NCBI GenBank assembly: GCA_963662465.1
Contig: OY759599.1
Span: 2,016,001 to 2,080,000, forward strand
DNA: 64,000 bases
Direction: 5' to 3'
DNA from: Desulfatiglandales bacterium
GTDB lineage: Bacteria; Desulfobacterota; DSM-4660; Desulfatiglandales; Desulfatiglandaceae
In this document: piece after piece, positions 14,226 through 26,247 of the stretch
Layout: each line of letters starts with the position of its first letter
How positions within the stretch are numbered: position 1 is the first letter of the stretch
Program-made: the position numbers and the translations under genes
Notes under the pieces: generated by a model
What the model was told of the DNA's origin: nothing
The model's database searches: none
What the model saw: the letters and a program-made list of their open reading frames with translations, nothing else

Positions 14226-16148
14226 ATGCGATTTAATTCAAAAAAAATCAATATCTGGCTATGGACGATTTTTTCTTCGATCCTGTTGTTTGGAGGTTGC
14301 ACCACCGATAGCCTTCAACAAAAAACCGCATCCAACCCTTTGTCAGGCAATGCCCCTTCCGCCGGGATGACCCTCCCAAACCCATCCGCCGCGCATGAAC
14401 CGGCCGCGAGTCAGCCGGCCGTTTACGGCAGCCCGGAAGATACCGCTCGTCATTTTCCGGAAATGGACGCCAGGAATGAAGCGCCTATTCCCAATGAAAA
14501 CGGCGAGAACATAAGGTCATTTCCCAATTCAAACACAGAGCAGAAGTCCGACCAGGAACTGCTGGATTCAGCAATGGAATTCTGTAATGCTTCCAATGAT
14601 TTCTGGGAGGAGGGAGACCTTGAAAATGCCATCGATGCCTTAGACCAGTCCTATACCATTATATTGAAAATAGACCCCAACAAATCTTCGGAAATGGTAC
14701 AACAGATAGATGATTTGCGGTTCACCATTTCCCAGCGAATCCTGCAAATCTATTCATCCCGGTTTACCGTGGTCAACGGCTATCACAAGGCCATTCCCCT
14801 AGACATGAATCCCCATGTGGAAAAGGCTCTGAATATGTATAAGGGGCGTTACAGGGATGCCTTTTTGGCCGCCTACCGTCGATCCGGACAATACCGCCCC
14901 TTTATTGTGAAACGCCTTAAAGAAGCCGGTCTTCCCGAAGAACTTTCCTGGTTGCCCCTCATTGAAAGCGGCTTTAAAGTCAGAGCGCTTTCACGGGCGC
15001 GGGCACTGGGGATGTGGCAATTTATCGCCTCCACCGGTTACAAATATGGTCTGAATCGGGGCCGCTGGGTCGATGAAAGAATGGACCCGGAAAAATCCAC
15101 CGAAGCTGCCATCGGCTATCTGAAAGAACTGCATCAGATTTTCGGCGACTGGGAAACGGTCCTTGCCGCTTACAACTGCGGGGAAGGTCGGGTACTCAGG
15201 ATTATTAACTCACAAAAAATCAACTATCTGGACCATTTTTGGGATCTTTACGCAAGGCTTCCCTCCGAGACGGCTTTTTATGTACCCAAGTTCCTTGCAG
15301 TGCTGCACATCATCAATGATCCAAAAGCACACGGTTTTGTACTTCCACCCGTGGACATGCCTCAACAGGAAACGGAAATCGTCACCATCGATAAACAAAT
15401 CTCCCTCAAATCCATAGCGGAGGGCGTTGTCGTTTCAACTGAAGTTTTGCACCAGCTGAATCCATCTCTCAAACGCCGCACGACCCCTCCCCGCCCCTAC
15501 GATTTGAGGGTTCCCAAAGGCAAAGGGGAAATGCTTCTGGCCAATCTGAATCAGATGCCGGAGTGGTGTCCTCCGCCGGTTCAGACCGCATATACGGACA
15601 GCACACTTAAACATAGAGTCAAAAAAGGTGAAACGCTCTCAACCATCGGTCGCAGATACGGCGCCGGCGTGAAGTCGATCATGCGTGCCAACCATTTGAA
15701 AAGCAGTCGATACCTCAAAGTGGGATGGACCCTCAAAATTCCCGTCAAGAAAAGACATGCTTCCACCCGGAAACCGACGGCAACAACCATTTCGCCAAAA
15801 AATGGCAATCCGGCAACATGCCCACCCGTCCCCCGCACTTATGCGGTTCAGAAGGGGGATTCACTTTGGAATATCGCCAACCGCTTCAAGACTACCACCA
15901 AGGCTATCCAAACCGCAAACCGGATGTCCTCCCCCGCCTTGAATATCGGTCAGGTCCTTAAAATCCCCGGCGCTTCTACCACCAGCGGCAGCGTCAAAAC
16001 AGATCCCTACAGGGTCTTGAAAGGGGATTCCCCCTATATCATCGCTCAAAAACACCAGATGGATCTCTCTATCCTGCTGCGATTGAACCAGCTAACACCG
16101 AGAAGCACCATTTTCCCCGGACAGACACTTCTGGTTCAGGCGAAATAA
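14226..16148 (+). CDS. mltD: Lytic murein transglycosylase lipoprotein with three LysM domains (MltD-like)
   Basis: Lipobox LFGG|C; SLT motifs IESGF, GMWQF, AAYNCG; LysM repeats HRVKKGETL, YAVQKGDSL, YRVLKGDSP. Confidence 0.88.
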   Translation: MRFNSKKINIWLWTIFSSILLFGGCTTDSLQQKTASNPLSGNAPSAGMTLPNPSAAHEPAASQPAVYGSPEDTARHFPEMDARNEAPIPNENGENIRSFPNSNTEQKSDQELLDSAMEFCNASNDFWEEGDLENAIDALDQSYTIILKIDPNKSSEMVQQIDDLRFTISQRILQIYSSRFTVVNGYHKAIPLDMNPHVEKALNMYKGRYRDAFLAAYRRSGQYRPFIVKRLKEAGLPEELSWLPLIESGFKVRALSRARALGMWQFIASTGYKYGLNRGRWVDERMDPEKSTEAAIGYLKELHQIFGDWETVLAAYNCGEGRVLRIINSQKINYLDHFWDLYARLPSETAFYVPKFLAVLHIINDPKAHGFVLPPVDMPQQETEIVTIDKQISLKSIAEGVVVSTEVLHQLNPSLKRRTTPPRPYDLRVPKGKGEMLLANLNQMPEWCPPPVQTAYTDSTLKHRVKKGETLSTIGRRYGAGVKSIMRANHLKSSRYLKVGWTLKIPVKKRHASTRKPTATTISPKNGNPATCPPVPRTYAVQKGDSLWNIANRFKTTTKAIQTANRMSSPALNIGQVLKIPGASTTSGSVKTDPYRVLKGDSPYIIAQKHQMDLSILLRLNQLTPRSTIFPGQTLLVQAK

Positions 16149-17407
16149 AGACCTTTCCACAGATCCCAGAACTCGGGGAAAGACTTGTTAACGCAGGCGC
16201 GATTCCGAATGCGGACGCCCGGAACTCTTAACCCCACCACCGCCAGGCTCATGGCCAGGCGATGATCGTCATGGGGGTCTACCTCGGCGTCGCAAAGCCT
16301 TTCACCGCCATGGACGACGAGATAATCCTCGAACTCTTCCACCCTGCCCCCCAATTTTCGCCACTCCCGGGTCACGGCATCCAATCTGTCGCTTTCCTTG
16401 AAACGGAGATGCCCCACATTTCGAATGGTGGTATTACCTTCGGCAAAAAGAGCCACTGCCGCCAGGGTAGGCACCATGTCCGGCATGCCCCCCATATCCA
16501 CATCAAGCCCTTTTAAGGAACCACCCGTAACCGATACCCGGTCCGGTTCCTTAACCACGGTGCATCCCATGGCCTCAAGGACCTCCAGCAATCGGATGTC
16601 CCCCTGCCGACCCTCGGGATGGATATTTCCGGTGGTCACCGTTCTCCCGGTAATGGCCGCGGCTGCCCAGAAGTAGGATGCGGACGATACGTCCCCTTGA
16701 ACCGTGTAGTCTCTCGACACATAGCTTTGTCCGGCGGGAACCCTGAATTTAGCGTAACCTTCCCGTTCCACCCTGACGCCGAAGGCCGCCATCACATCGA
16801 TGGTCACATCCACATAGGGCCGGGACACCAGCACCCCCTCTACCCTAATCTCCACATCTTTCCGGGCGTAAGGCCCTGACAGCAACAACGCCGAAAGAAA
16901 CTGACTGCTGGCATCCCCCGGCAAAACCACCGCACCCCCTGAAATGCCATCTGAAGCGATGCGAATGGGCGGGCAACCATTGTTTTCCATGCAGGAAACA
17001 TCGGCGCCCAGTTGACGGAGGGCATCCACCAGCGGCCCCATGGGCCGCTCCCGCATACGGGGGGTTCCGGTCATGAGATATGTTCCCTTTGCCAGGGCCA
17101 GAACGGGCACCAGAAGCCTAAAAGAAGTTCCGGAATTACCTAAATAAACCGCTTTTTCCCAAGGCTGGAAACTGACCTTTTCACCAATCCCCTCCATGAC
17201 CAAATGATTGCCATTGCGCTTCATTTGAACGCCCATGGCCTTCAAAGCCCGGGCCGTGTGACGGGTGTCATCGCATTGCAGATCATTTTTAAGGATGGTT
17301 TTTCCACCGGCCAGACCTCCGGCAATGAGCGCCCGATGGGTGATGCTTTTTGATCCTGGAATGGTCACTACATCATCATCCCCTGAAAAAATTTTTATTG
17401 TGTTCAT
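16136..17407 (-). CDS. aroA: 3-phosphoshikimate 1-carboxyvinyltransferase (EPSP synthase)
   Basis: PGSKSITHRAL, GNSGTSFR, SSQFLSALL, KESDRL and DHRLAM motifs. Confidence 0.96.
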   Translation of the reverse strand: MNTIKIFSGDDDVVTIPGSKSITHRALIAGGLAGGKTILKNDLQCDDTRHTARALKAMGVQMKRNGNHLVMEGIGEKVSFQPWEKAVYLGNSGTSFRLLVPVLALAKGTYLMTGTPRMRERPMGPLVDALRQLGADVSCMENNGCPPIRIASDGISGGAVVLPGDASSQFLSALLLSGPYARKDVEIRVEGVLVSRPYVDVTIDVMAAFGVRVEREGYAKFRVPAGQSYVSRDYTVQGDVSSASYFWAAAAITGRTVTTGNIHPEGRQGDIRLLEVLEAMGCTVVKEPDRVSVTGGSLKGLDVDMGGMPDMVPTLAAVALFAEGNTTIRNVGHLRFKESDRLDAVTREWRKLGGRVEEFEDYLVVHGGERLCDAEVDPHDDHRLAMSLAVVGLRVPGVRIRNRACVNKSFPEFWDLWKGLYFA

Positions 17408-17425
17408 TTCCGCTCCAGTTGTTTT

Positions 17426-18232
17426 TCAAAGGTACATTTTGACCGCGGCCCGCATGACATCCACGGGGGGATTCAAGTCGGTCCACAAGCGAAACTGTTC
17501 CGCCCCCTGATGGATAAACATTTCCAGTCCGTTGATGACGGTGCATCCGCGAGCGCGGGCGTTTTTCAGCAGGCGGGTTTCAAGGGGATTATAAATGGCA
17601 TCCATTACCACCATTGTCTCCTGAAACACATGGTCCGGCACAGGGGAGGCATTGGTATGGGGAAACATGCCCACCGGCGTTGTCTGAATCAATACATTCG
17701 CCGGTATCTCATGGATTCTCTCCAGGGGAATAAAAGGACATACCAAAAAATCCGCAAGGATCCGACCGCGATCCTCGGACCGGTTGGCAACCACCAGTTT
17801 CATCCCCCTTTCCCGGGCCATAAACCCGATGCCCCGGGCCGCGCCGCCGGCGCCCACCAGAACGCACCGTTTTCCCGCGAGATCGATTTTCGCTTCGAGA
17901 GCCTTCATGGCCCCCAGACCATCGGTATTGTATCCTTTCAACCGGCCTTCCACATTCACAATGGTGTTGACGGCGCCGATTTGTTCCGCTAGTGGGTCCA
18001 GCTCATCCAGATATTGAATGACCGACGTCTTGAAGGGAATGGTGACGCTCATGCCCTTGATGCCCAGTGCCCGCATACCGCGAATGCTCCCCTCGGGATC
18101 CGATGATTCAAAGGCCCCATAGAGCGCGTTAACCCCCGAAGCCTTGAATGCCGCGTTGTGCATAACCGGGCTGAGGGAATGGCCAATAGGATTTCCCAGC
18201 ACCCCGTAAATTTTCGCAAGCCGGATTTTCAT
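17426..18232 (-). CDS. aroE: Shikimate dehydrogenase
   Basis: HSLSPVMHN, SVTIPFK, GAVNT, NTDG and GAGGAA motifs; start placed at the ATGA overlap with the aroD stop. Confidence 0.95.
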   Translation of the reverse strand: MKIRLAKIYGVLGNPIGHSLSPVMHNAAFKASGVNALYGAFESSDPEGSIRGMRALGIKGMSVTIPFKTSVIQYLDELDPLAEQIGAVNTIVNVEGRLKGYNTDGLGAMKALEAKIDLAGKRCVLVGAGGAARGIGFMARERGMKLVVANRSEDRGRILADFLVCPFIPLERIHEIPANVLIQTTPVGMFPHTNASPVPDHVFQETMVVMDAIYNPLETRLLKNARARGCTVINGLEMFIHQGAEQFRLWTDLNPPVDVMRAAVKMYL

Positions 18233-18897
18233 TGGGAAAAAACCTCCAGTATCATCTTCATCTCTTTCACCGTCATCTGGCCGGAAGCGGACTTCTGTTC
18301 TCTTGTGAGGGAAGCAAAGGTGAAAGCCCCACCCAGAAGAGGGCAGACGACCCGGCTGATGCGGCCCAGGGGACCCATGCACAGAGCAACAATCTCAACG
18401 CCCATCTTTTCAGCCAAAGGGATCAATCCCAACACGGTCAGGTTATCCGCCGGGGTCCGGGCGTGGGTAACGATCTTCACCACATCCGCTCCCGTATCGG
18501 CCATTTTTCGGAACAAATCAGACAGTGTCTCCTTTGAAGGGGTTCCATCGGGAAAGTGTTTTGACAGGATCAGCCTGGAATGATTCCGTTCCTCAAATAA
18601 CAGCCGTCGATGTTCCAGGGGAATGGCATATTCAATATCCACAAAATCCGCTCCCACTCTTACGGCTTCCCTGAGATAAGCCACGCAGGCGCCATGGGGA
18701 ACACAACCGCCCCCCCCCTCTTTTTTGGATCGATAGGTCATGATCACCGGTTTGGAAGCTGCCGTTATGATCTTATCCAAATTAAAGGCTTCCATAACAT
18801 CCAACCGGACTTCCATGAGGTCGCCGGAAATTGACGCTTCCGCCATTTTCCGAAGCGCATCGGACGTATCCCGGGCCATAATGGGGATACAAATCAT
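18229..18897 (-). CDS. aroD: Type I 3-dehydroquinate dehydratase
   Basis: MICIPI start, EVRLD, DIE, SKH, VVKIV, MGPLGRISR and ASGQ motifs; ATGA overlap with the upstream kinase. Confidence 0.9.
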   Translation of the reverse strand: MICIPIMARDTSDALRKMAEASISGDLMEVRLDVMEAFNLDKIITAASKPVIMTYRSKKEGGGGCVPHGACVAYLREAVRVGADFVDIEYAIPLEHRRLLFEERNHSRLILSKHFPDGTPSKETLSDLFRKMADTGADVVKIVTHARTPADNLTVLGLIPLAEKMGVEIVALCMGPLGRISRVVCPLLGGAFTFASLTREQKSASGQMTVKEMKMILEVFSQ

Positions 18898-20780
18898 GAT
18901 ATTACCTGAACGGAATCTTTTAATTCGTGAGAAAGGCGTTTCGAAAAGGACACATGAAAAGTGATGCCCCTTTCGGCGTCGGGACTCACCCATACACTGC
19001 CCTGATGCCGCTGTGCAATCTCTTTGACGATAGCCAACCCCAACCCTGTTCCCTGAATACCCTCGGCGTCCTTTCGACGCATGAACAGACCAAAAATTTT
19101 CTTGGCGTCTTCCGACCCTACCCCGATACCATTGTCCCTGACGGAAAGGATATGGTGTTCGTCCGTTTCTTCATATCCAATGTTAATTTCACTTAAGCCC
19201 TTCCCACCGTATTTTAAGGCATTATCCACGAGATTTCTGAACATCCGGACCAGACTTACCCTGTCCCCATGAATAAGGGGTACGCGTTTGGGTTCGCGCC
19301 AGCTTATCTTCCGCCGACCCAAAACATCGGAAAACTCCCGGCGGATACTCTGAAGAACCATTTTCACGTCGATGGGTTGAATGTTTAAAGGGGATTCCTT
19401 GGCCGAGATGTAAACATTGATATCGTCGAGGAGCGCCACCATCTGCTCGCAGGCCCCAGCAATATATCGGCAGTACCGTCGGCCTCTTTCATCGAGTACA
19501 TCCCCATAGTTTTCCTGAAGCCGTTTGGCAAAGCCGTAACTGCTGATGGCCGGGCTTTTAAGGTCGTGAGAGATCGAATAAGCAAACAGTTTGATTTTTT
19601 CCGAACTTTCGTTCACAGCCTCCTCCATCTGCTTGCGGTCCGTAATATCAAGAATCAGGGCTTGCTTGGACAGGGTCCCATCCTCATGATAAATGGGCGT
19701 GTTGACGATATAGTACCAGCGGGAATCCTTGGGACTCAGGACTTCCCACCGAACGGTCTCTCCCTTAAAAACGCGATCGTTGACGCACCAGGGGCATATG
19801 GTATCCAAATCATGAAGGGCCTTGTAACACAATTCTCCCGTTGCATCGCGACCGGTTCTCTCCATCAGACGCCGGTTCATGAATTCCACCCGGTAATCCT
19901 GGGAGCAAATATAGATGAGTCCGTCAAAAGCCTCCACCATGGCCCGATAATGGGCCTCCCGCTCCCGCAGGGCCTTCTCTGCCCTGTTTTGCTGAGTAAC
20001 ATCTCGAATAATGCCCTGATACCCTGAAATGCCGCTATGGCCATCCTCCCCCGCCGTTGCCGTCAGCAGGCACTGCATTTCGACGCCGTCTTTCTTTCGT
20101 AACGCAATTTCATAGTCTTTAACGGAATGAGTCCTCTCCATCCGTTCCAGAAGCAACTCCCGATCCCCGGGGTCAACATACATCTCCCGCACATTGACCT
20201 TGCCGACCATCTCGTCTTTGGTATACCCAAAAAGCGTTAACATGGCCGGGTTTGCATCCAGGCATTCGCCTTCGCGGCTTGTGATATAAATGGCATCTCC
20301 GGAATCGTTAAAAAGCCGGCGGTATCTCCCTTCACTTTTCAACAATGCATGTTCCGTCCGTTTCTGCGCGGTCACATCTTTTGCAACCCCTTGAATGGCA
20401 TAAGGTTGTTTTCCATTCCGGTAAATGACGGCGGCATCGGTCTCCACATCCACATACTGCCCGTCTTTTCTCCTCAGCCGGTATGTGGAAAGCTTGGATG
20501 AACCCGTTTCCAGAAGGTGTTCCACGGCCTTAAAGGCACAAGGAAGTTGATCTTCGCTCAACAGGGCTGTGAAATTCAAGGAGCTGAGCTCATCCCTTTG
20601 ATATCCCAACAGTTTCAAGGCTGCATCATTGGCGTCCAGAAACCAGCCTTCCAGGTCATGAAGATATACGCAATAGGTGGAACGATTAAAAAGAGCTGCA
20701 TACCGTGCTTCTATATCATGGATTCCACTTTCCATTCGTTTGCGCTCCAATTTAGGATCTATTTTGTTAGCTGTCGGCAA
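18894..20780 (-). CDS. Cytoplasmic multi-PAS sensor histidine kinase
   Basis: Three PAS/PAC repeats; H-box SHDLKSP; N-box NLVDNALKY; G-boxes DNGIG and GTGLGL; no TM helix or receiver domain. Confidence 0.92.
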   Translation of the reverse strand: MPTANKIDPKLERKRMESGIHDIEARYAALFNRSTYCVYLHDLEGWFLDANDAALKLLGYQRDELSSLNFTALLSEDQLPCAFKAVEHLLETGSSKLSTYRLRRKDGQYVDVETDAAVIYRNGKQPYAIQGVAKDVTAQKRTEHALLKSEGRYRRLFNDSGDAIYITSREGECLDANPAMLTLFGYTKDEMVGKVNVREMYVDPGDRELLLERMERTHSVKDYEIALRKKDGVEMQCLLTATAGEDGHSGISGYQGIIRDVTQQNRAEKALREREAHYRAMVEAFDGLIYICSQDYRVEFMNRRLMERTGRDATGELCYKALHDLDTICPWCVNDRVFKGETVRWEVLSPKDSRWYYIVNTPIYHEDGTLSKQALILDITDRKQMEEAVNESSEKIKLFAYSISHDLKSPAISSYGFAKRLQENYGDVLDERGRRYCRYIAGACEQMVALLDDINVYISAKESPLNIQPIDVKMVLQSIRREFSDVLGRRKISWREPKRVPLIHGDRVSLVRMFRNLVDNALKYGGKGLSEINIGYEETDEHHILSVRDNGIGVGSEDAKKIFGLFMRRKDAEGIQGTGLGLAIVKEIAQRHQGSVWVSPDAERGITFHVSFSKRLSHELKDSVQVIS

Positions 20781-20802: not shown

Positions 20803-21942
20803 TCATGATATATCACCTGATGGATAAGATCCCAACCATTTTATAAACACGCACAGATCTTTCATCTCAGCCAGGGCATCGGCCAGGGTAGGATCATTGC
20901 GGTGTCCTTCAAGATCCACAAAAAACAGGTATTCCCAGGAGCGCATACGCATGGGTCTGGATTCGATGCGGCAAACGTTAATGTCTCTTTTTGCCATGGC
21001 TGACAGCACCTCGGCCAAAGCGCCCGGACGATGGCCCAGAAAAAATAACAGGGTGGTTTTGTCGCATCCGGTGGGTTGGGGCTCACTGTTTCCCAACACC
21101 AGGAAACGGGTCACATTATGGGGCTCGTCTTCGATATCTTCACTGAGAAGCTGGAGCCCCAGGGTTTCCGCCAGAAAACGGCTGCCCAGAGCAGCGCCAT
21201 TCGGATCATCGGATGCCATTTTGCCCGCAAGGGACGTGCTTTCCACCGACTCAAAGGGAACCTCCGGCAGATGGCTTTTGAGCCATGAACGGCACTGGGC
21301 CAACGGCATGGGATGGGAATAAAGTCTTCTGATGTGTTTCAGGTCTTTATTCCGGGCCATCAAACTGAGCCTGATCCGGTGGTAATACTCTCCACATATT
21401 TTCAGATCAAATTTGTTAAACAGATCCCAGATCCCGGAAACTGAGCCTTCCAGAGAATTTTCCACCGGAATCACACCCTGATGACAGTGCCCCTTTTCCA
21501 CGGACCCGAAAACATCTTCAAAGGTCCGGGACGGACAGAATTCAGCGGAACTGCCGAAAATGGAAATGGCGGCCTGGTGCGAAAAAGTTGCCTCGGGACC
21601 CAGGAAACCGACCTTCAACGGCCCTTGAACCGCCCGACCGGCGGAAATGATCCGGCCAAAAATATCCCGGATCGCATCCGGCGTAAGACGTCCGCGGTTA
21701 TTTGCAGCCATCCGGTCAAGGATCTCTTTTTCGCGCACGGGATCAAAAACCGCCATCCCCAGTTTTTCCTTGATCCGTCCGATGGCGGCGGCCGCGTCAA
21801 GCCGCTCCCCCAAAAGCGACAGTATTCCGGCGTCAATCGAGTCGATATCCCGACGCCGACAGCCCAGCTCCCGCCAATCGGCATTTTCATCCTTTTCGGA
21901 CGGCATTCCTGTTGTTTCTTCTGTTTTCATGTCCATATCCAC
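20803..21942 (-). CDS. pheA: Chorismate mutase / prephenate dehydratase (P-protein)
   Basis: N-terminal chorismate mutase (RRDIDSID...RE), LGPEATFS, PVENSLEG, NVTRF and ACT-domain IESRP motifs. Confidence 0.95.
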   Translation of the reverse strand: MDMDMKTEETTGMPSEKDENADWRELGCRRRDIDSIDAGILSLLGERLDAAAAIGRIKEKLGMAVFDPVREKEILDRMAANNRGRLTPDAIRDIFGRIISAGRAVQGPLKVGFLGPEATFSHQAAISIFGSSAEFCPSRTFEDVFGSVEKGHCHQGVIPVENSLEGSVSGIWDLFNKFDLKICGEYYHRIRLSLMARNKDLKHIRRLYSHPMPLAQCRSWLKSHLPEVPFESVESTSLAGKMASDDPNGAALGSRFLAETLGLQLLSEDIEDEPHNVTRFLVLGNSEPQPTGCDKTTLLFFLGHRPGALAEVLSAMAKRDINVCRIESRPMRMRSWEYLFFVDLEGHRNDPTLADALAEMKDLCVFIKWLGSYPSGDIS

Positions 21943-21980: not shown

Positions 21981-23048
21981 TCAAATCCCCAGATCCTGCC
22001 CACCGGCTCTGGCCCGCAAATAATGATCCGCCAGAACCAGCGCCACCATAGCTTCAACCACCGGCACAATGCGGGCAACCGCCGTCACGTCAAATCTGCC
22101 GGTCAATTCCAGGGTCGCGTCCCGACCCTGCCGATCAATGGTTTCCTGGGGCTTCATGATGGAAGGAATGGGTTTCACCGCTACCCGAAGCACCAGTTCA
22201 TCGCCGTTGGAGATACCCCCAAGGATGCCGCCGGACCTGTTGGAAGCAAAACCCGTGGAACGGATGGGGTCATTGTTTTCAGAACCCTTGAGACGGGCCG
22301 CCTCAAACCCCGCGCCCACCTCAACCCCTTTTACGGCGCCAATAGACATGAGAGCTTTAGCCAGCTCCGCATCCAGCTTGTCGAACACGGGTTCCCCCAA
22401 TCCGGCGGGACAACCGGATACGCAGACTTCCACCACACCACCGAGACTGTCTCCGTCTTCCCTGGCCCTTTCGAGTGCCGCCAACATGGGTTCCACCGCA
22501 TCCGGGTCGGCACAATAGAGAGGATTCCGGGAAATAACGCCCGGGTCCATCCGTTCAGCTCGAATCCCCCCCAACGCCAGGGTATAGGCAAGAATGCGCA
22601 TATGGAAGGGCGCCAACACTTTCCGTGCCACCACCCCGCAGGCCACCCGAGCGGCGGTTTCCCGGGCGGAAGCCCGACCCCCTCCCCGGTAATCCAGATG
22701 ACCAAATTTCTTGAAGTAGGTGTAATCCGCATGCCCCGGCCTGAACAGGTCCTTCAGTACCCCGTAAGGTTTGCTTTTGACGTCATGGTTTCCCACCAGC
22801 AGGGTTAACGAGGTTCCGGTAGTGCGCCCTTCAAAAACGCCGGACATGATTTCCACCCGGTCTTCTTCCGCCCTGGGCGTCTCAAAAGAAGACCGCCCCG
22901 GCCTGCGCCGTTCCATCTCCCCTATGAAGTCAGCGTCCGTAAGGCGAATCCCTGAAGGACACCCGTCGATAATGGCCCCCAGGGCTTTTCCGTGGGATTC
23001 GCCAAATGTGGTGATTTTAAATGCCTGTCCAAATGAATTTCCGGCCAT
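21981..23048 (-). CDS. aroC: Chorismate synthase
   Basis: TTFGESHG, RPGHAD, GGGRASARET and GGILGGISNG motifs. Confidence 0.97.
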   Translation of the reverse strand: MAGNSFGQAFKITTFGESHGKALGAIIDGCPSGIRLTDADFIGEMERRRPGRSSFETPRAEEDRVEIMSGVFEGRTTGTSLTLLVGNHDVKSKPYGVLKDLFRPGHADYTYFKKFGHLDYRGGGRASARETAARVACGVVARKVLAPFHMRILAYTLALGGIRAERMDPGVISRNPLYCADPDAVEPMLAALERAREDGDSLGGVVEVCVSGCPAGLGEPVFDKLDAELAKALMSIGAVKGVEVGAGFEAARLKGSENNDPIRSTGFASNRSGGILGGISNGDELVLRVAVKPIPSIMKPQETIDRQGRDATLELTGRFDVTAVARIVPVVEAMVALVLADHYLRARAGGQDLGI

Positions 23049-23062
23049 GAGATCCTCTCCGG

Positions 23063-23644
23063 TTATGAGTTTAATGCCGCCGTGCTGACAGTCCCCTGTG
23101 GTTGTCCGCTATCCCGTATGGGCATAACCGGCTCAGGCATGGATTGTATGATTTCGTATGCCACCGCCTCGGGGGATTGCTCATCCGTATTCACAACATA
23201 ATGGCAGGCCCGTTCATAAAGGGGGGCTCTCTCACTCAGGAGCTGTCCGATCTCAGCCATCGGGTTTTCCCCGACCAATCCCGGTCGAATTCTGCCCGAG
23301 TTCTCATCTTGGGTCATCCGATCCCGAATGGTCGATATGCTCGTCCGCAACCAAACGAGCCAGCCCGTTTTTTTTAAATTCCGCACATTTTCCCAATCCA
23401 GCACCGCACCGCCACCGGTGGAAATAACCCGTTGATCATCATTTGAAATGGATCGAATGATAATTTTCTCCAGCATTCGAAAGGCATCCCAGCCGTTTTC
23501 GGCCACATAATGGGGAATGGTGGACCCAACTCGCCTCTCCAAAAGCTGATCCGTATCCACCAGTTCCAACCCCAGATGATTCGCCAGGGTTTTCCCCACC
23601 ACACTTTTTCCGCTGCACCGATACCCGATTAAAACAATATTCAT
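23063..23644 (-). CDS. aroK: Shikimate kinase
   Basis: P-loop GYRCSGKS, DTD, STGGG and RAPLY motifs. Confidence 0.93.
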   Translation of the reverse strand: MNIVLIGYRCSGKSVVGKTLANHLGLELVDTDQLLERRVGSTIPHYVAENGWDAFRMLEKIIIRSISNDDQRVISTGGGAVLDWENVRNLKKTGWLVWLRTSISTIRDRMTQDENSGRIRPGLVGENPMAEIGQLLSERAPLYERACHYVVNTDEQSPEAVAYEIIQSMPEPVMPIRDSGQPQGTVSTAALNS

Positions 23645-23666
23645 GTCAACACCCGAAACATTTCAC

Positions 23667-23707
23667 AAAAAAAAGCCGCGGAAGCTTTTGAAGGCATCCA
23701 CGGCTTT
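23667..23707 (-). terminator. Intrinsic terminator (attenuator) in the aro leader
   Basis: mRNA AAAGCCGUGGA-loop-UCCGCGGC followed by 8 U, ~22 nt upstream of aroK. Confidence 0.85.
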
Positions 23708-23730
23708 GAAAAATGACAAAAAACAGCATC

Positions 23731-23796
23731 TCAGACCATGGATGGACCTCCAAAATAATAATAATAAAAGCCCTGCCACGATCGATTCGTAAACAT
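23731..23796 (-). CDS. Aromatic-amino-acid attenuator leader peptide MFTNRSWQGFYYYYFGGPSMV (21 aa)
   Basis: ATG TTT ACG AAT CGA TCG TGG CAG GGC TTT TAT TAT TAT TAT TTT GGA GGT CCA TCC ATG GTC TGA, directly upstream of the terminator and aroK; below the ORF-track size cut-off. Confidence 0.85.
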   Translation of the reverse strand: MFTNRSWQGFYYYYFGGPSMV

Positions 23797-23838
23797 TATT
23801 TCGCTGTTTCCTTTTGTCCAAGTTAAAGAATGAGAAGC

Positions 23839-24470
23839 AGTCAATGACCACCACCAAAGGTGGTGGCTTGAATTAATGCACCTGGAAGGTGCATGGTACC
23901 TATTCTATTTGAACAATTTACCTTGCGTCACATCGGCATCTTTATCTTTACTATGCTGCCATTTTACATACTTTTTGATCCGCTCTTCATTTAAGCCTAC
24001 CGTACTCACACAATAGCCTCTCGACCACACATGTTGTCCCCAGTATTTTTTTCGTAGTTGAGGAAAACGGTCAAATAGTTGTAGAGCCAGTTTCCCCTTC
24101 AAGAACCCCATGAACTGCGATATGGCGTATTTCGGAGGGATTGATACGACCAGGCGAACATGGTCAATTTGCACATTACCTTCCACCACTTCTACGTCAT
24201 CTTTTTGATTACATAACCGATATATCTGTTGCATCACATATTTTGCCACTTCTTCCTGCAATATTTTGTAGCGATATTTCGGGCAAAACACCACATGGTA
24301 CTTACACTCATACAAAGAATGTGCTAATTTCTTGAATTGACGTTGACGAGTCATTATATGCCTCCTGTTAGTTTCGCACCTTCCAGGAAGACATATAATA
24401 CTCGTCATATTCAATACACCGGTAGAACCTTTTTTTATTCCACTACCAGAGGTAGTGGTTTACTTTTTAA
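23839..24470 (-). mobile_element. IS200/IS605-family element (tnpA only); ends approximate
   Basis: Subterminal hairpins CCACCACC-AAA-GGTGGTGG (23848-23866) and CCACTACC-AGA-GGTAGTGG (24440-24458) flank a Y1 transposase; no terminal inverted repeats or target duplication, as expected for the family. Confidence 0.85.
23905..24354 (-). CDS. tnpA: IS200-like Y1 (HUH) transposase TnpA, HUH motif mutated
   Basis: KYHVVFCPKYR, DHVRL (expected DHVHL), SIPPK, WSRGY and KKYVKWQ motifs; AGGAGG RBS before the ATG at 24354. Confidence 0.88.
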   Translation of the reverse strand: MTRQRQFKKLAHSLYECKYHVVFCPKYRYKILQEEVAKYVMQQIYRLCNQKDDVEVVEGNVQIDHVRLVVSIPPKYAISQFMGFLKGKLALQLFDRFPQLRKKYWGQHVWSRGYCVSTVGLNEERIKKYVKWQHSKDKDADVTQGKLFK

Positions 24471-24505
24471 TAAAAATCATTTGGGATCTTTTGTCAAGAA
24501 GAAAA

Positions 24506-26247
24506 GGCTCAACGCGGATTAACGTGAAAAAATGTTTCGCCTGTCATTTTTTTGAGAACTTTCTCCCCCAATAGGTATAAATAGGATGGAAAAAGCTCAT
24601 TAGGAGGATTTTCCATGAAACTGCTACCCCGTTTTACATCCTATATAAAGGATGCTGCGAAGTCCGTGAAGCGAATTACCCTGCAAGAATTCAAAGAAGT
24701 TGCGGATGAAACTCTGACCGAATTGTTGGGCATTGCAAGCATCGGGGTAAAGATGTTTGCACTTCGTCGCGAAGGAGAACACGAAGTTCTGCACTTTGGT
24801 GTACCCATCGCGAGGAGGTTGCCTTGTGTCCACATTGCGGCTCACTTTCAACGAAAATTCATCAAGAAGAAACTCGATCTATTCGTCATTTGGATGTGTG
24901 GGGCAAAAAGACTGTCCTACATTTTCTTTCTCGCCGTTTCAAATGCGAAGATTGTGGTCGGACTTTTGTAGAAGAATTGCCCTTCGTAGATTCCCACCGC
25001 AGGCAATCCATAACCTTCGAACAGCATATTTATCAGGCCTGTCTTACAAGCACCCGCAAGGCTGTTGCAGTTCATGAAGGGCTAAGCCACTCTACAGTAA
25101 AAGATATCTTCAACTTTTGGGCGGCAATGAAACGGATATCTACGGCCACCTATCCTGTCAGGGGCTTAGGAATTGATGAGCTTTCCATCAAAAAGCGTCA
25201 CAAGCAATTCGTACTCGTGATCTCTGATATTGATAGGAAATGCATACTCGCTATCCTGCCTGACAGGGAGAAAAAAACCCTGGAAAATTGGATAGAAGCC
25301 TTGAGTCCTATGGAGAAAAAATCTATCCGTTTTGTTTCCATTGACATGTGGGCGCCCTATGATCAAGCAGCCCGCAGCAAGCTGCCCCATGCGAAGGTGG
25401 TAGTTGACCGATTCCATGTCATGAAACAATTGAATACGCGCCTGACCCAGCTGCGCACAAAATATCAGAAAGAAAGCTCTGATGAAATGAAAAAACTACT
25501 CAAAGGCAGCCGCTGGATACTTGTACGCAATCGGGCTGAACTGTCACCAAAGGAGACGGAACATCTGGATAACATACTGAAAACATGCCCTGATCTTCGC
25601 GCCTTGTACCTGCTTAAAGAAGAATTCCGCACCATATTCGAGAAAATCCATTGCAGAGAAAAAGCAGCCCGTTTTTTGGACGCATGGGTTCTAAAAGCAA
25701 AACGAACAGGCAACAAATACCTGCTCAAATTTGTTGCTACATTCAAAAACTGGAGAAAGGAGATCCTCAATTATTTTACCGAACGAATCACAAATGGTTT
25801 TGTCGAGGGGCTCAATAATGGACTGAGGACGATGATACGCTCGGCTTACGGTTACAGGAATTTTGCAAACTTCAGGCTTCGGGCGCTCGCACAATTCGCG
25901 GGTTTTCGCGTTACTCCGCGATAAGTCAAAAAAGTCAACAGTTTAAAAGAGCTCATAATAACAAGCGCCTAAGTAAATCAAGTCAACAAGGTAAGCGCCT
26001 GAACCTTGATGATGCCGGCAGCATGAATAAAAAATCAAGTCATCAAGTCAATCAAGGTTCATACAAATGAGAAACTGTCCTGCCTTGCGTCGGTAGCCAT
26101 CTTGTATTAGCTCTTCATTGCCTTATCCCAGTGGACGCAGAGCGTCCAAAGCGCATTCTCACGCAGAGTGTAGGAATACGCGGAGCTTTTGACATCTGAC
26201 ATCTTTGGTTCGAAATATCGATTTTTCACGTTAATCCGCGATGAGCC
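24506..26247 (+). mobile_element. ISL3-family insertion sequence
   Basis: 26-bp terminal inverted repeats GGCTCAACGCGGATTAACGTGAAAAA (24506-24531) and TTTTTCACGTTAATCCGCGATGAGCC (26222-26247), one mismatch; exact 8-bp duplication GAAGAAAA (24498-24505 and 26248-26255). Confidence 0.93.
24615..25924 (+). pseudogene. ISL3 transposase with a frameshift near 24795
   Basis: N-terminus (LTELLGI...EVLH) is in one frame; WCTHREEVALCPHCG zinc finger, GIDE, SIDMW, DRFHV, TNGFVEGLNN and AYGYRNF are in another. Confidence 0.8.

What the first reader, a model, noticed from the sequence alone, without database searches (positions are those of the whole stretch)
23667..23796. Leader-peptide attenuator reading Tyr, Phe and possibly Trp ahead of the common shikimate pathway
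Seen: a 21-aa ORF, MFTNRSWQGFYYYYFGGPSMV, has 8 aromatic codons (4 Tyr, 3 Phe, 1 Trp). It is followed by a GC stem plus U8 terminator just before aroK. The leader's last codons (CAUCCAUGGU) can pair with the terminator's 5' arm (GCCGUGGAUG, 10 bp with two G-U), giving a mutually exclusive antiterminator that a ribosome at the stop codon would mask. Established: this is the trpL/pheL attenuation architecture. Inference: one leader integrates the end products of the shared aroKCDEA/pheA pathway, with Tyr as the dominant signal. I do not know of a characterised Tyr-run attenuator on such an operon in this lineage.
Basis: partly seen in the sequence, partly recalled or inferred. Interest (0 to 1): 0.82.

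Follow-up and report, generated by a model that had tools for sequence, protein, structure and literature searches.

The report
Aromatic leader-peptide attenuator before aroK operon
A 21-codon mini-gene packed with phenylalanine and tyrosine codons, followed by two competing RNA hairpins, sits in front of the shikimate-pathway genes of this anaerobe and of its relatives, and likely lets transcription continue only when these amino acids run short: a textbook kind of switch in an RNA family that I did not find catalogued.

Summary
In detail: the uORF (23796-23731, minus strand; 4 Tyr, 3 Phe, 1 Trp), the 10-bp antiterminator (extendable to about 19 bp) and the terminator with U8 are all there. 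The same leader precedes aroK in 24 of 29 relatives. Antiterminator and terminator both show compensatory changes, and the aromatic run ends 7-16 nt before the antiterminator arm, where a stalled ribosome would leave it free. A model matches 121 of 149 class and 56 of 151 phylum genomes. Four sister leaders in this genome change codon content with their targets (Trp runs before trpE). It is very probably a classical ribosome-stalling attenuator.

Two corrections. 'Tyr-dominant' holds only for this genome (family: 59 Phe, 57 Tyr). The Trp codon lies in a stem and is replaced in 6 of 25 leaders. The concept is known: Corynebacterium aroR (Phe-Tyr-Phe before aroF), which reportedly answers to Phe only.

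Extra: an IS200/IS605 element separates the leader from its native promoter here. No expression data were available. The scan has noted such leaders before in at least 12 other genomes.

The parts
23731..23796 (-). Leader uORF, 21 aa, MFTNRSWQGFYYYYFGGPSMV
   Evidence: homologous uORFs of 21-27 aa in 24 of 29 relatives' aroK loci
23752..23769 (-). Control-codon run F10-Y11-Y12-Y13-Y14-F15, at the top of the 1:2 hairpin
23776..23778 (-). Trp7 codon (UGG), paired in the 1:2 stem; possible minor control codon
   Evidence: fold; UGG in 18 of 25 leaders
23809..23812 (-). Weak Shine-Dalgarno-like AGGA, 12 nt before the leader ATG; predicted to pair with the post-stop spacer in the finished leader RNA
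   Evidence: sequence; 9.8-13.0 expected pairs in 10 of 10 same-genus leaders, variable elsewhere
23734..23783 (-). Protector (1:2) hairpin inside the uORF, -22.2 kcal/mol
   Evidence: z = -3.1 here, z <= -2 in only 9 of 25; no fixed-register covariation
23735..23755 (-). Segment 2: 5' arm of the antiterminator (core 23744-23735)
   Evidence: covariation with segment 3
23685..23707 (-). Segment 3: shared strand (terminator 5' arm and loop, antiterminator 3' arm)
23667..23707 (-). Intrinsic terminator (3:4 hairpin and U8)
24469..24497 (-). Probable native sigma-70 promoter: TTGACA (24497-24492), 17 nt, TTTATT (24474-24469); now about 630 bp from the leader
   Evidence: matches the sequence lying directly before the leader in same-genus relatives; inferred, no start site mapped
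23839..24468 (-). IS200/IS605-family element (tnpA only, 23905-24414) inserted between promoter and leader
   Evidence: three further copies 98.9-99.4% identical define the ends
24506..26247 (+). ISL3 element with 8-bp target duplication TTTTCTTC, directly upstream of the -35 box
   Evidence: two further copies 99.9% identical
23063..23644 (-). aroK/aroL shikimate kinase, first regulated gene
   Evidence: best NF002988 AroL E 4e-40, below curated cut-off
21981..23048 (-). aroC chorismate synthase
   Evidence: TIGR00033 above cut-off
20803..21942 (-). pheA chorismate mutase/prephenate dehydratase
18894..20780 (-). PAS-domain histidine kinase inside the gene run
16136..18993 (-). aroD, aroE, aroA; the next gene (14226-16148) is on the + strand, so the run ends at aroA

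Best explanation
This is very likely a classical ribosome-mediated transcription attenuator: a 21-codon leader with a Phe/Tyr run is predicted to control a terminator in front of aroK-aroC-pheA-kinase-aroD-aroE-aroA. Shown in sequence and alignments: the uORF, the terminator, an overlapping antiterminator, and their fixed spacing. Inferred working: a ribosome loads on the leader and opens the 1:2 hairpin. If charged tRNA-Phe or tRNA-Tyr is scarce it stalls at codons 10-14, leaving segment 2 free to pair with segment 3; the terminator cannot form and the operon is read. If they are plentiful the ribosome reaches codons 17-22, covers segment 2, the 3:4 hairpin forms and RNA polymerase stops at the U-tract. 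The family most likely reads Phe and Tyr about equally; this copy leans to Tyr (four of six codons); Trp7 is at most a minor input.
For: Conservation: leader plus terminator in 24 of 29 relatives' aroK loci; 32 of 45 pattern-found leaders precede aroK/aroC, 5 a DAHP synthase, 1 an aldolase of the ADH-synthase type. Antiterminator: 86.2% of cells paired, 5 of 12 pairs with two-sided changes, 0 of 500 shuffles reach the covariation score, slid controls 32-48%. Terminator: 96.4% paired, 4 of 11 pairs with two-sided changes. Column 152 changes together with partners in both helices. Coding signal: 86 of 100 codons at positions -10 to -7 from the conserved Met codon are F/Y/W; that Met codon is in frame in 23 of 25. 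Geometry: the last aromatic codon lies 7-16 nt before the antiterminator core in 25 of 25; 159 of 162 F/Y/W codons fall where 2:3 is predicted with a 10-nt footprint, and the stop codon never does. Internal control: sister leaders carry Trp runs before trpEGDC-trpB and a second DAHP synthase, and a Tyr-rich run before aroG-aroB-aminotransferase-tyrA. Precedent: aroR of C. glutamicum.
Against: No expression, 3'-end or translation evidence. The 1:2 protector shows no covariation in one register (96-179 of 500 shuffles as high) and is clearly stable in only 9 of 25 leaders. In the truncated ribosome-free transcript 2:3 wins at equilibrium in 15 of 25 leaders, this one included, so the untranslated state is unresolved. 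At full-length equilibrium stalls at Tyr14 and Phe15 do not hold the antiterminator (P 0.00-0.36); they need the kinetic argument. Ten of the two-sided changes per column separate one genus from the rest and may be one event. The Shine-Dalgarno match is weak. The IS200/IS605 insertion may change or bypass normal control in this genome. One relative (L021) has a decayed run with a single Tyr.
Confidence: 0.9

Rival explanations
1. Same attenuator, but in practice it senses Phe only; Tyr and Trp codons add little, as reported for Corynebacterium aroR.
For: [quoted passage not shown]
Against: Here 4 of 6 run codons are Tyr; Tyr is kept as often as Phe across 25 leaders (57 vs 59); phylum members with pure Tyr runs of 5 and 8 codons exist (L151, L155); the tyrA-containing operon has a Tyr-rich sister leader.
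Confidence: 0.2
2. One reading: one leader integrates all three aromatic amino acids with Tyr dominant.
For: A stall at Trp7 or Tyr11 gives P(2:3) 0.80-0.99 at every footprint tested; further Trp codons enter the run in 8 of 25 leaders.
Against: Phe and Tyr are balanced across the family; Trp7 pairs in the 1:2 stem and changes to GGG, GAG, CGG or GCG in 6 of 25, four of which keep the GG; Trp has separate leaders in this genome.
Confidence: 0.25
3. The switch is driven by a ligand or an RNA-binding protein (riboswitch or TRAP-like), and the uORF is a by-product of a U-rich binding site.
For: The run is U-rich; codon bias is extreme (UUU 55, UAU 54, UUC 4, UAC 3); a weak match to the Rfam trpB riboswitch-candidate motif exists (25.3 bits).
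Against: Start, stop and frame are kept; indels in the run are mostly multiples of 3; no UUA, UUG, UAA or UAG among 139 run codons; codon identity follows the downstream pathway; the Rfam match is far below its 59-bit cut-off and rests mainly on the terminator.
Confidence: 0.05
4. In this genome the attenuator is intact but cut off from normal expression, because two IS elements have landed around its promoter.
For: IS200/IS605 at 24468-23839 lies between the -10 box and the leader; ISL3 abuts the -35 box.
Against: Both promoter hexamers and their 17-nt spacing survive; neither IS-end hairpin is followed by a U-run on the transcribed strand; leader and terminator carry no damage.
Confidence: 0.2

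Closest known systems
aroR-aroF attenuator of Corynebacterium glutamicum (Neshat et al. 2014; not read, seen through passages of PMC11802643, PMC4046766 and PMC11525245)
   Same: Leader peptide with adjacent Phe and Tyr codons controlling the common shikimate pathway by ribosome-mediated attenuation.
   Different: Different phylum; Phe-Tyr-Phe against a run of 5-9 codons; controls aroF rather than aroK-aroC-pheA-aroDEA; reported to ignore Tyr. Sequence relatedness not tested.
pheL-pheA, pheM-pheST and trpL of Escherichia coli (passages of PMC11802643 and PMC3082878; 1:2/2:3/3:4 model recalled)
   Same: Short leader, control codons, protector, antiterminator and terminator in the same order.
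   Different: Each senses one amino acid for a terminal branch. No Rfam Phe- or Trp-leader match at E <= 5.
uORFC-13-1 motif upstream of aroF in Acholeplasma (PMC8632094, passages)
   Same: Predicted uORF with Phe codons before a terminator ahead of the shikimate pathway.
   Different: Other phylum, 24 representatives, Phe only, no antiterminator described in the passages seen.
Rfam RF04312 trpB motif (PMC11109978, passages)
   Same: Hairpin, spacer and terminator with an antiterminator strand in the first hairpin; best Rfam score here.
   Different: 25.3 bits against a 59-bit cut-off, E 0.15-0.65; described from Firmicutes and Fusobacteria as a riboswitch candidate.

Membership tests
Classical leader-peptide transcription attenuator (trpL/pheL/hisL type) | Short conserved uORF ahead of a biosynthetic operon | tested here: met
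   24 of 29 relatives' aroK loci
Classical leader-peptide transcription attenuator (trpL/pheL/hisL type) | Clustered codons for the pathway's end products | tested here: met
   86 of 100 codons at fixed positions are F/Y/W; sister leaders switch to Trp runs before trp genes
Classical leader-peptide transcription attenuator (trpL/pheL/hisL type) | Intrinsic terminator before the first gene | tested here: met
Classical leader-peptide transcription attenuator (trpL/pheL/hisL type) | Antiterminator mutually exclusive with the terminator | tested here: met
   86.2% paired, 5 of 12 pairs with two-sided changes
Classical leader-peptide transcription attenuator (trpL/pheL/hisL type) | Stall at control codons frees segment 2, ribosome at stop covers it | tested here: met
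   folding with a masked footprint, (model, not measurement)
Classical leader-peptide transcription attenuator (trpL/pheL/hisL type) | Protector/pause hairpin 1:2 | tested here: inconclusive
   present here (z = -3.1); z <= -2 in 9 of 25; no covariation in one register
Classical leader-peptide transcription attenuator (trpL/pheL/hisL type) | Leader is translated, transcripts end at the U-tract, read-through rises on starvation | not testable with these tools
   needs RNA or ribosome-profiling data and reporters
Rfam Phe- and Trp-leader families | Covariance-model match at gathering score | tested here: not met
   not among the matches at E <= 5 or E <= 2
Rfam RF04312 trpB motif | Score at or above 59 bits | tested here: not met
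   25.3 bits
Corynebacterium aroR attenuator | Sequence homology of the leader RNA | not tested
   aroR sequence not fetched; only the published description was compared

The most novel reading that the evidence does not exclude
A phylum-wide, uncatalogued attenuator chassis of Desulfobacterota in which one RNA switch is re-used with swappable codon cassettes (Phe/Tyr, Trp, pure Tyr) to run an entire aromatic amino-acid regulon, and in which tyrosyl-tRNA shortage is a real attenuation signal, something the characterised Corynebacterium case did not show. Its copies then tag uncharacterised genes (an MBL-hydrolase fusion, acyl-CoA ligases, aminotransferases, an indolepyruvate oxidoreductase) as parts of aromatic amino-acid supply.
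Probability: 0.55. Interest if true: 0.6.

Novelty: new member of a known kind. Interest (0 to 1): 0.42.

Why it matters
It supplies a missing regulator for aromatic amino-acid synthesis in anaerobic Desulfobacterota and a well-supported RNA family for annotation. Natural variants run from mixed Phe/Tyr to pure Tyr or Trp codons on one scaffold, which makes the question of tyrosine sensing by attenuation directly testable with reporters. The family also points at unannotated enzymes. The mechanism itself is textbook, so surprise is moderate.

Tried and rejected
Rfam: nothing at gathering score; the trpB motif hit rejected as a terminator-driven weak match. The consensus terminator scan missed this terminator because its loop limit is 8 nt; its promoter-like hit inside the IS end (23931-23902) is no better than chance (2 found, 1.8 expected). 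Fixed-register covariation of the 1:2 hairpin was not significant. The 37-aa in-frame extension from TTG 23844 starts at the IS junction and was not taken as the real start. A blastn of the leader against the own genome returned no parsable output; the covariance model did that job. Sequencing runs: no RNA holder listed. Contigs of four runs gave no joint for an IS-free site, which shows nothing either way; two runs of one sample match 23400-23865 without a difference and may be the source sample. Literature searches listed no description of this family; the comparative study of Lopatovskaya et al. 2010 was seen only as a reference. The supplement of PMC11109978, which covers a Desulfobacteraceae genome and 8 uORF candidates, could not be read and may bear on novelty. 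A recalled IS200 insertion in the Yersinia pheA attenuator was not found in the library and is not used.

Full report
Observation. The minus strand carries ATG 23796 to TGA 23731, MFTNRSWQGFYYYYFGGPSMV. It is followed after 25 nt by a hairpin (23707-23672, -20.8 kcal/mol), U8 (23674-23667) and, 22 nt later, the start of a shikimate kinase gene. The downstream run on that strand is aroK, aroC, pheA, a PAS histidine kinase, aroD, aroE and aroA; the next gene faces the other way. Co-transcription is inferred from spacing only. A hairpin inside the uORF (-22.2 kcal/mol) sequesters the same strand, so the 1:2, 2:3 and 3:4 set is complete. The region folds better than 200 of 200 shuffles. Among 115 terminator-like sites of this genome that have a short ORF just upstream (of 363 sites), this is the only one with six aromatic codons in six; two more reach five and both are sister leaders. 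That scan missed two other sister leaders, so it is a specificity control only.

Conservation. aroK was found in 40 of 61 genomes and the 30 best of 46 matches were fetched. A terminator motif with a uORF lies upstream in 25 of 30, the own locus included. The motif was written after viewing, so that step is not blind. The five misses are three genomes of one family (f4), one locus with 653 nt of upstream DNA and one other. A pattern scan of one genome per species gave 74 loci, of which 45 had leader and terminator; 10 of these duplicated loci already held. The other 29 are mostly unrelated taxa, and at least one (L072) is a real leader that my filter dropped. Of the 45, 32 precede aroK or aroC, 5 a DAHP synthase, 1 an aldolase of the ADH-synthase type, 4 a metallo-beta-lactamase-fold protein, 2 a contig end and 1 unassigned genes. 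Six of these loci were scanned with Pfam; the rest were labelled by BLAST to the window's proteins or by likeness of the N-terminus. Record titles name Desulfatiglandales, Desulfobacteraceae and deltaproteobacterial genomes, which places the window's organism there by inference.

Range. A covariance model from 60 leaders matched 121 of 149 class genomes (training sequences match by construction, family f4 0 of 5, targets not checked) and 56 of 151 phylum genomes. Of 28 phylum loci examined, 24 have a Phe/Tyr run, 2 a Trp run and 2 no clear leader. Their first genes include ADH synthase, DAHP synthase, aroK, aminotransferases, an acyl-CoA ligase and an indolepyruvate oxidoreductase subunit; 9 were scanned, 6 with a hit at the strict threshold used.

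Structure. In the 25-leader alignment the terminator is 96.4% paired with 4 of 11 pairs changed on both sides. The antiterminator is 86.2% paired with 5 of 12 pairs changed on both sides; no shuffle of 500 reaches its covariation score and slid registers give 32-48%. One column changes together with its partners in both helices. Ten of these changes per column follow one genus and may be a single event; the tool warns that relatedness inflates the shuffle test. The 1:2 hairpin is weaker evidence: no covariation in one register, and z <= -2 in 9 of 25.

Coding signal. At positions -10 to -7 from the conserved Met codon near the end, 86 of 100 codons are Phe, Tyr or Trp. That Met codon is in frame in 23 of 25; the other two shift late and use a second UGA. 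The run gives 125 aromatic residues of 139 in frame, 47 and 48 in the other frames and 74.5 +/- 3.9 in shuffles, but its ends were defined by aromatic residues, so that figure is partly circular. Totals are Phe 59, Tyr 57, Trp 9. Trp7 is UGG in 18 of 25, another codon in 6 and unplaced in 1; it pairs in the 1:2 stem here, so its conservation can be structural.

Switch model. Masking a ribosome footprint in folding gives antitermination for stalls from about codon 5-7 to Tyr11-Tyr13 at full-length equilibrium, depending on footprint. With the transcript cut before the terminator's 3' arm, as during synthesis, the window runs to Tyr14 or Phe15 and closes by Ser19. In all 25 leaders the last aromatic codon is 7-16 nt before the antiterminator core and a ribosome at the stop abolishes 2:3. 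A stall at Phe2 leaves the terminator favoured at full length. In the cut, ribosome-free transcript 2:3 wins in 15 of 25, so whether an untranslated leader terminates depends on folding order and is not settled. These are equilibrium models, not measurements.

Internal control. The model finds four more leaders in this genome: FFYFRF before an 854-aa MBL-fold protein (E 4.7e-14); FLYYWYYFY before aroG-aroB-aminotransferase-prephenate dehydrogenase (E 4.6e-5); FWWWRWF before a second DAHP synthase (E 0.011); and WWW before trpE-trpG-trpD-trpC and trpB (E 0.25). The last two scores are weak, but their context fits. Codon content following the target argues that the codons are read as amino acids. 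Earlier notes of this scan had already recorded the first two.

Promoter. Same-genus relatives have TTGACA, 17 nt and a weak -10 box directly before the leader. Here the same boxes lie at 24497-24469. An IS200/IS605 element (24468-23839, four near-identical copies in the genome) sits between them and the leader, and an ISL3 with an 8-bp target duplication abuts the -35 box. The simplest reading is that transcription starts in the IS end and crosses tnpA before reaching the leader; this is untested.

What is known. A review describes C. glutamicum aroR, a Phe-Tyr-Phe leader before aroF that responds to Phe but not Tyr (PMC11802643, passages; also PMC4046766 and PMC11525245, passages). The primary paper was not available. 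An Acholeplasma uORF before aroF is predicted in PMC8632094 (passages), and a Shewanella table lists aroF as 'attenuator sensing tyr-tRNA', citing 1980 work in E. coli (PMC2659441, passages). PMC3082878, PMC3223726, PMC4833913 and PMC11109978 were seen as passages only. Seven searches and Rfam gave no record of this family; the library lacks most subscription papers, and one supplement was unreadable. The scan's index holds 13 similar findings in at least 12 genomes; these are unchecked notes and not support.

Verdict. Real, conserved, and very probably a classical attenuator (0.9). It works like trpL/pheL/aroR and belongs to that mechanistic class on every feature that could be tested except the inconclusive 1:2 hairpin; it is not a member of any Rfam family. 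It is a new member of a known kind. The likely signal is Phe plus Tyr, not Tyr above all. Interest 0.42.

Noticed in passing
window 23839-24468 and 24506-26247: Two insertion sequences bracket the native promoter of the operon: IS200/IS605 right after the -10 box, ISL3 (8-bp duplication TTTTCTTC) right before the -35 box.
   Followed up: partly
window 24793: The ISL3 transposase is split into two ORFs (24615-24971, 24824-25924); contigs of all four runs carry one more T here, so this copy is frameshifted or the assembly has an error.
   Followed up: no
window 18894-20780: A three-PAS histidine kinase sits between pheA and aroD with a 22-nt gap and an overlap, so it may be co-regulated by the attenuator; no partner regulator is adjacent.
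   Followed up: no
L002, L003, L004, L007, L011, L017, L029, L087, L092, within 330 nt after aroC: A second attenuator of the same type lies inside the operon after aroC; in L002-L004 and L007 it precedes an ADH-synthase-like gene. This genome lacks it, and L008 shows a decayed remnant.
   Followed up: partly
G000:C1:3650965-3651079 (+), L106/L143: Sister leader MYCKLTGFFYFRFMGTPPPVD before an 854-aa MBL-fold fusion protein without an NCBIfam hit at 1e-40; similar genes follow the leader in L038, L090, L094, L101, L159, L167.
   Followed up: partly
G000:C1:1624697-1624778 (-), L110/L144: The trp operon leader (WWW) is followed by two terminator hairpins in tandem.
   Followed up: no
L151, L155: Leaders with pure Tyr runs (5 and 8 codons) precede an ADP-forming acyl-CoA ligase-like gene; L161 has a Trp run before an indolepyruvate ferredoxin oxidoreductase alpha-like gene. 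This suggests aryl-acid salvage to aromatic amino acids.
   Followed up: partly
window 23812-23803 with 23728-23718 (- strand): In the 10 same-genus leaders the ribosome-binding region is predicted to pair with the spacer after the stop codon (9.8-13.0 expected pairs), which would shut off re-translation of the finished leader; variable in other genera.
   Followed up: partly
L014, L023, L026 (family f4): aroK follows another gene directly with no leader, and the model finds no match in 0 of 5 genomes of this family.
   Followed up: no
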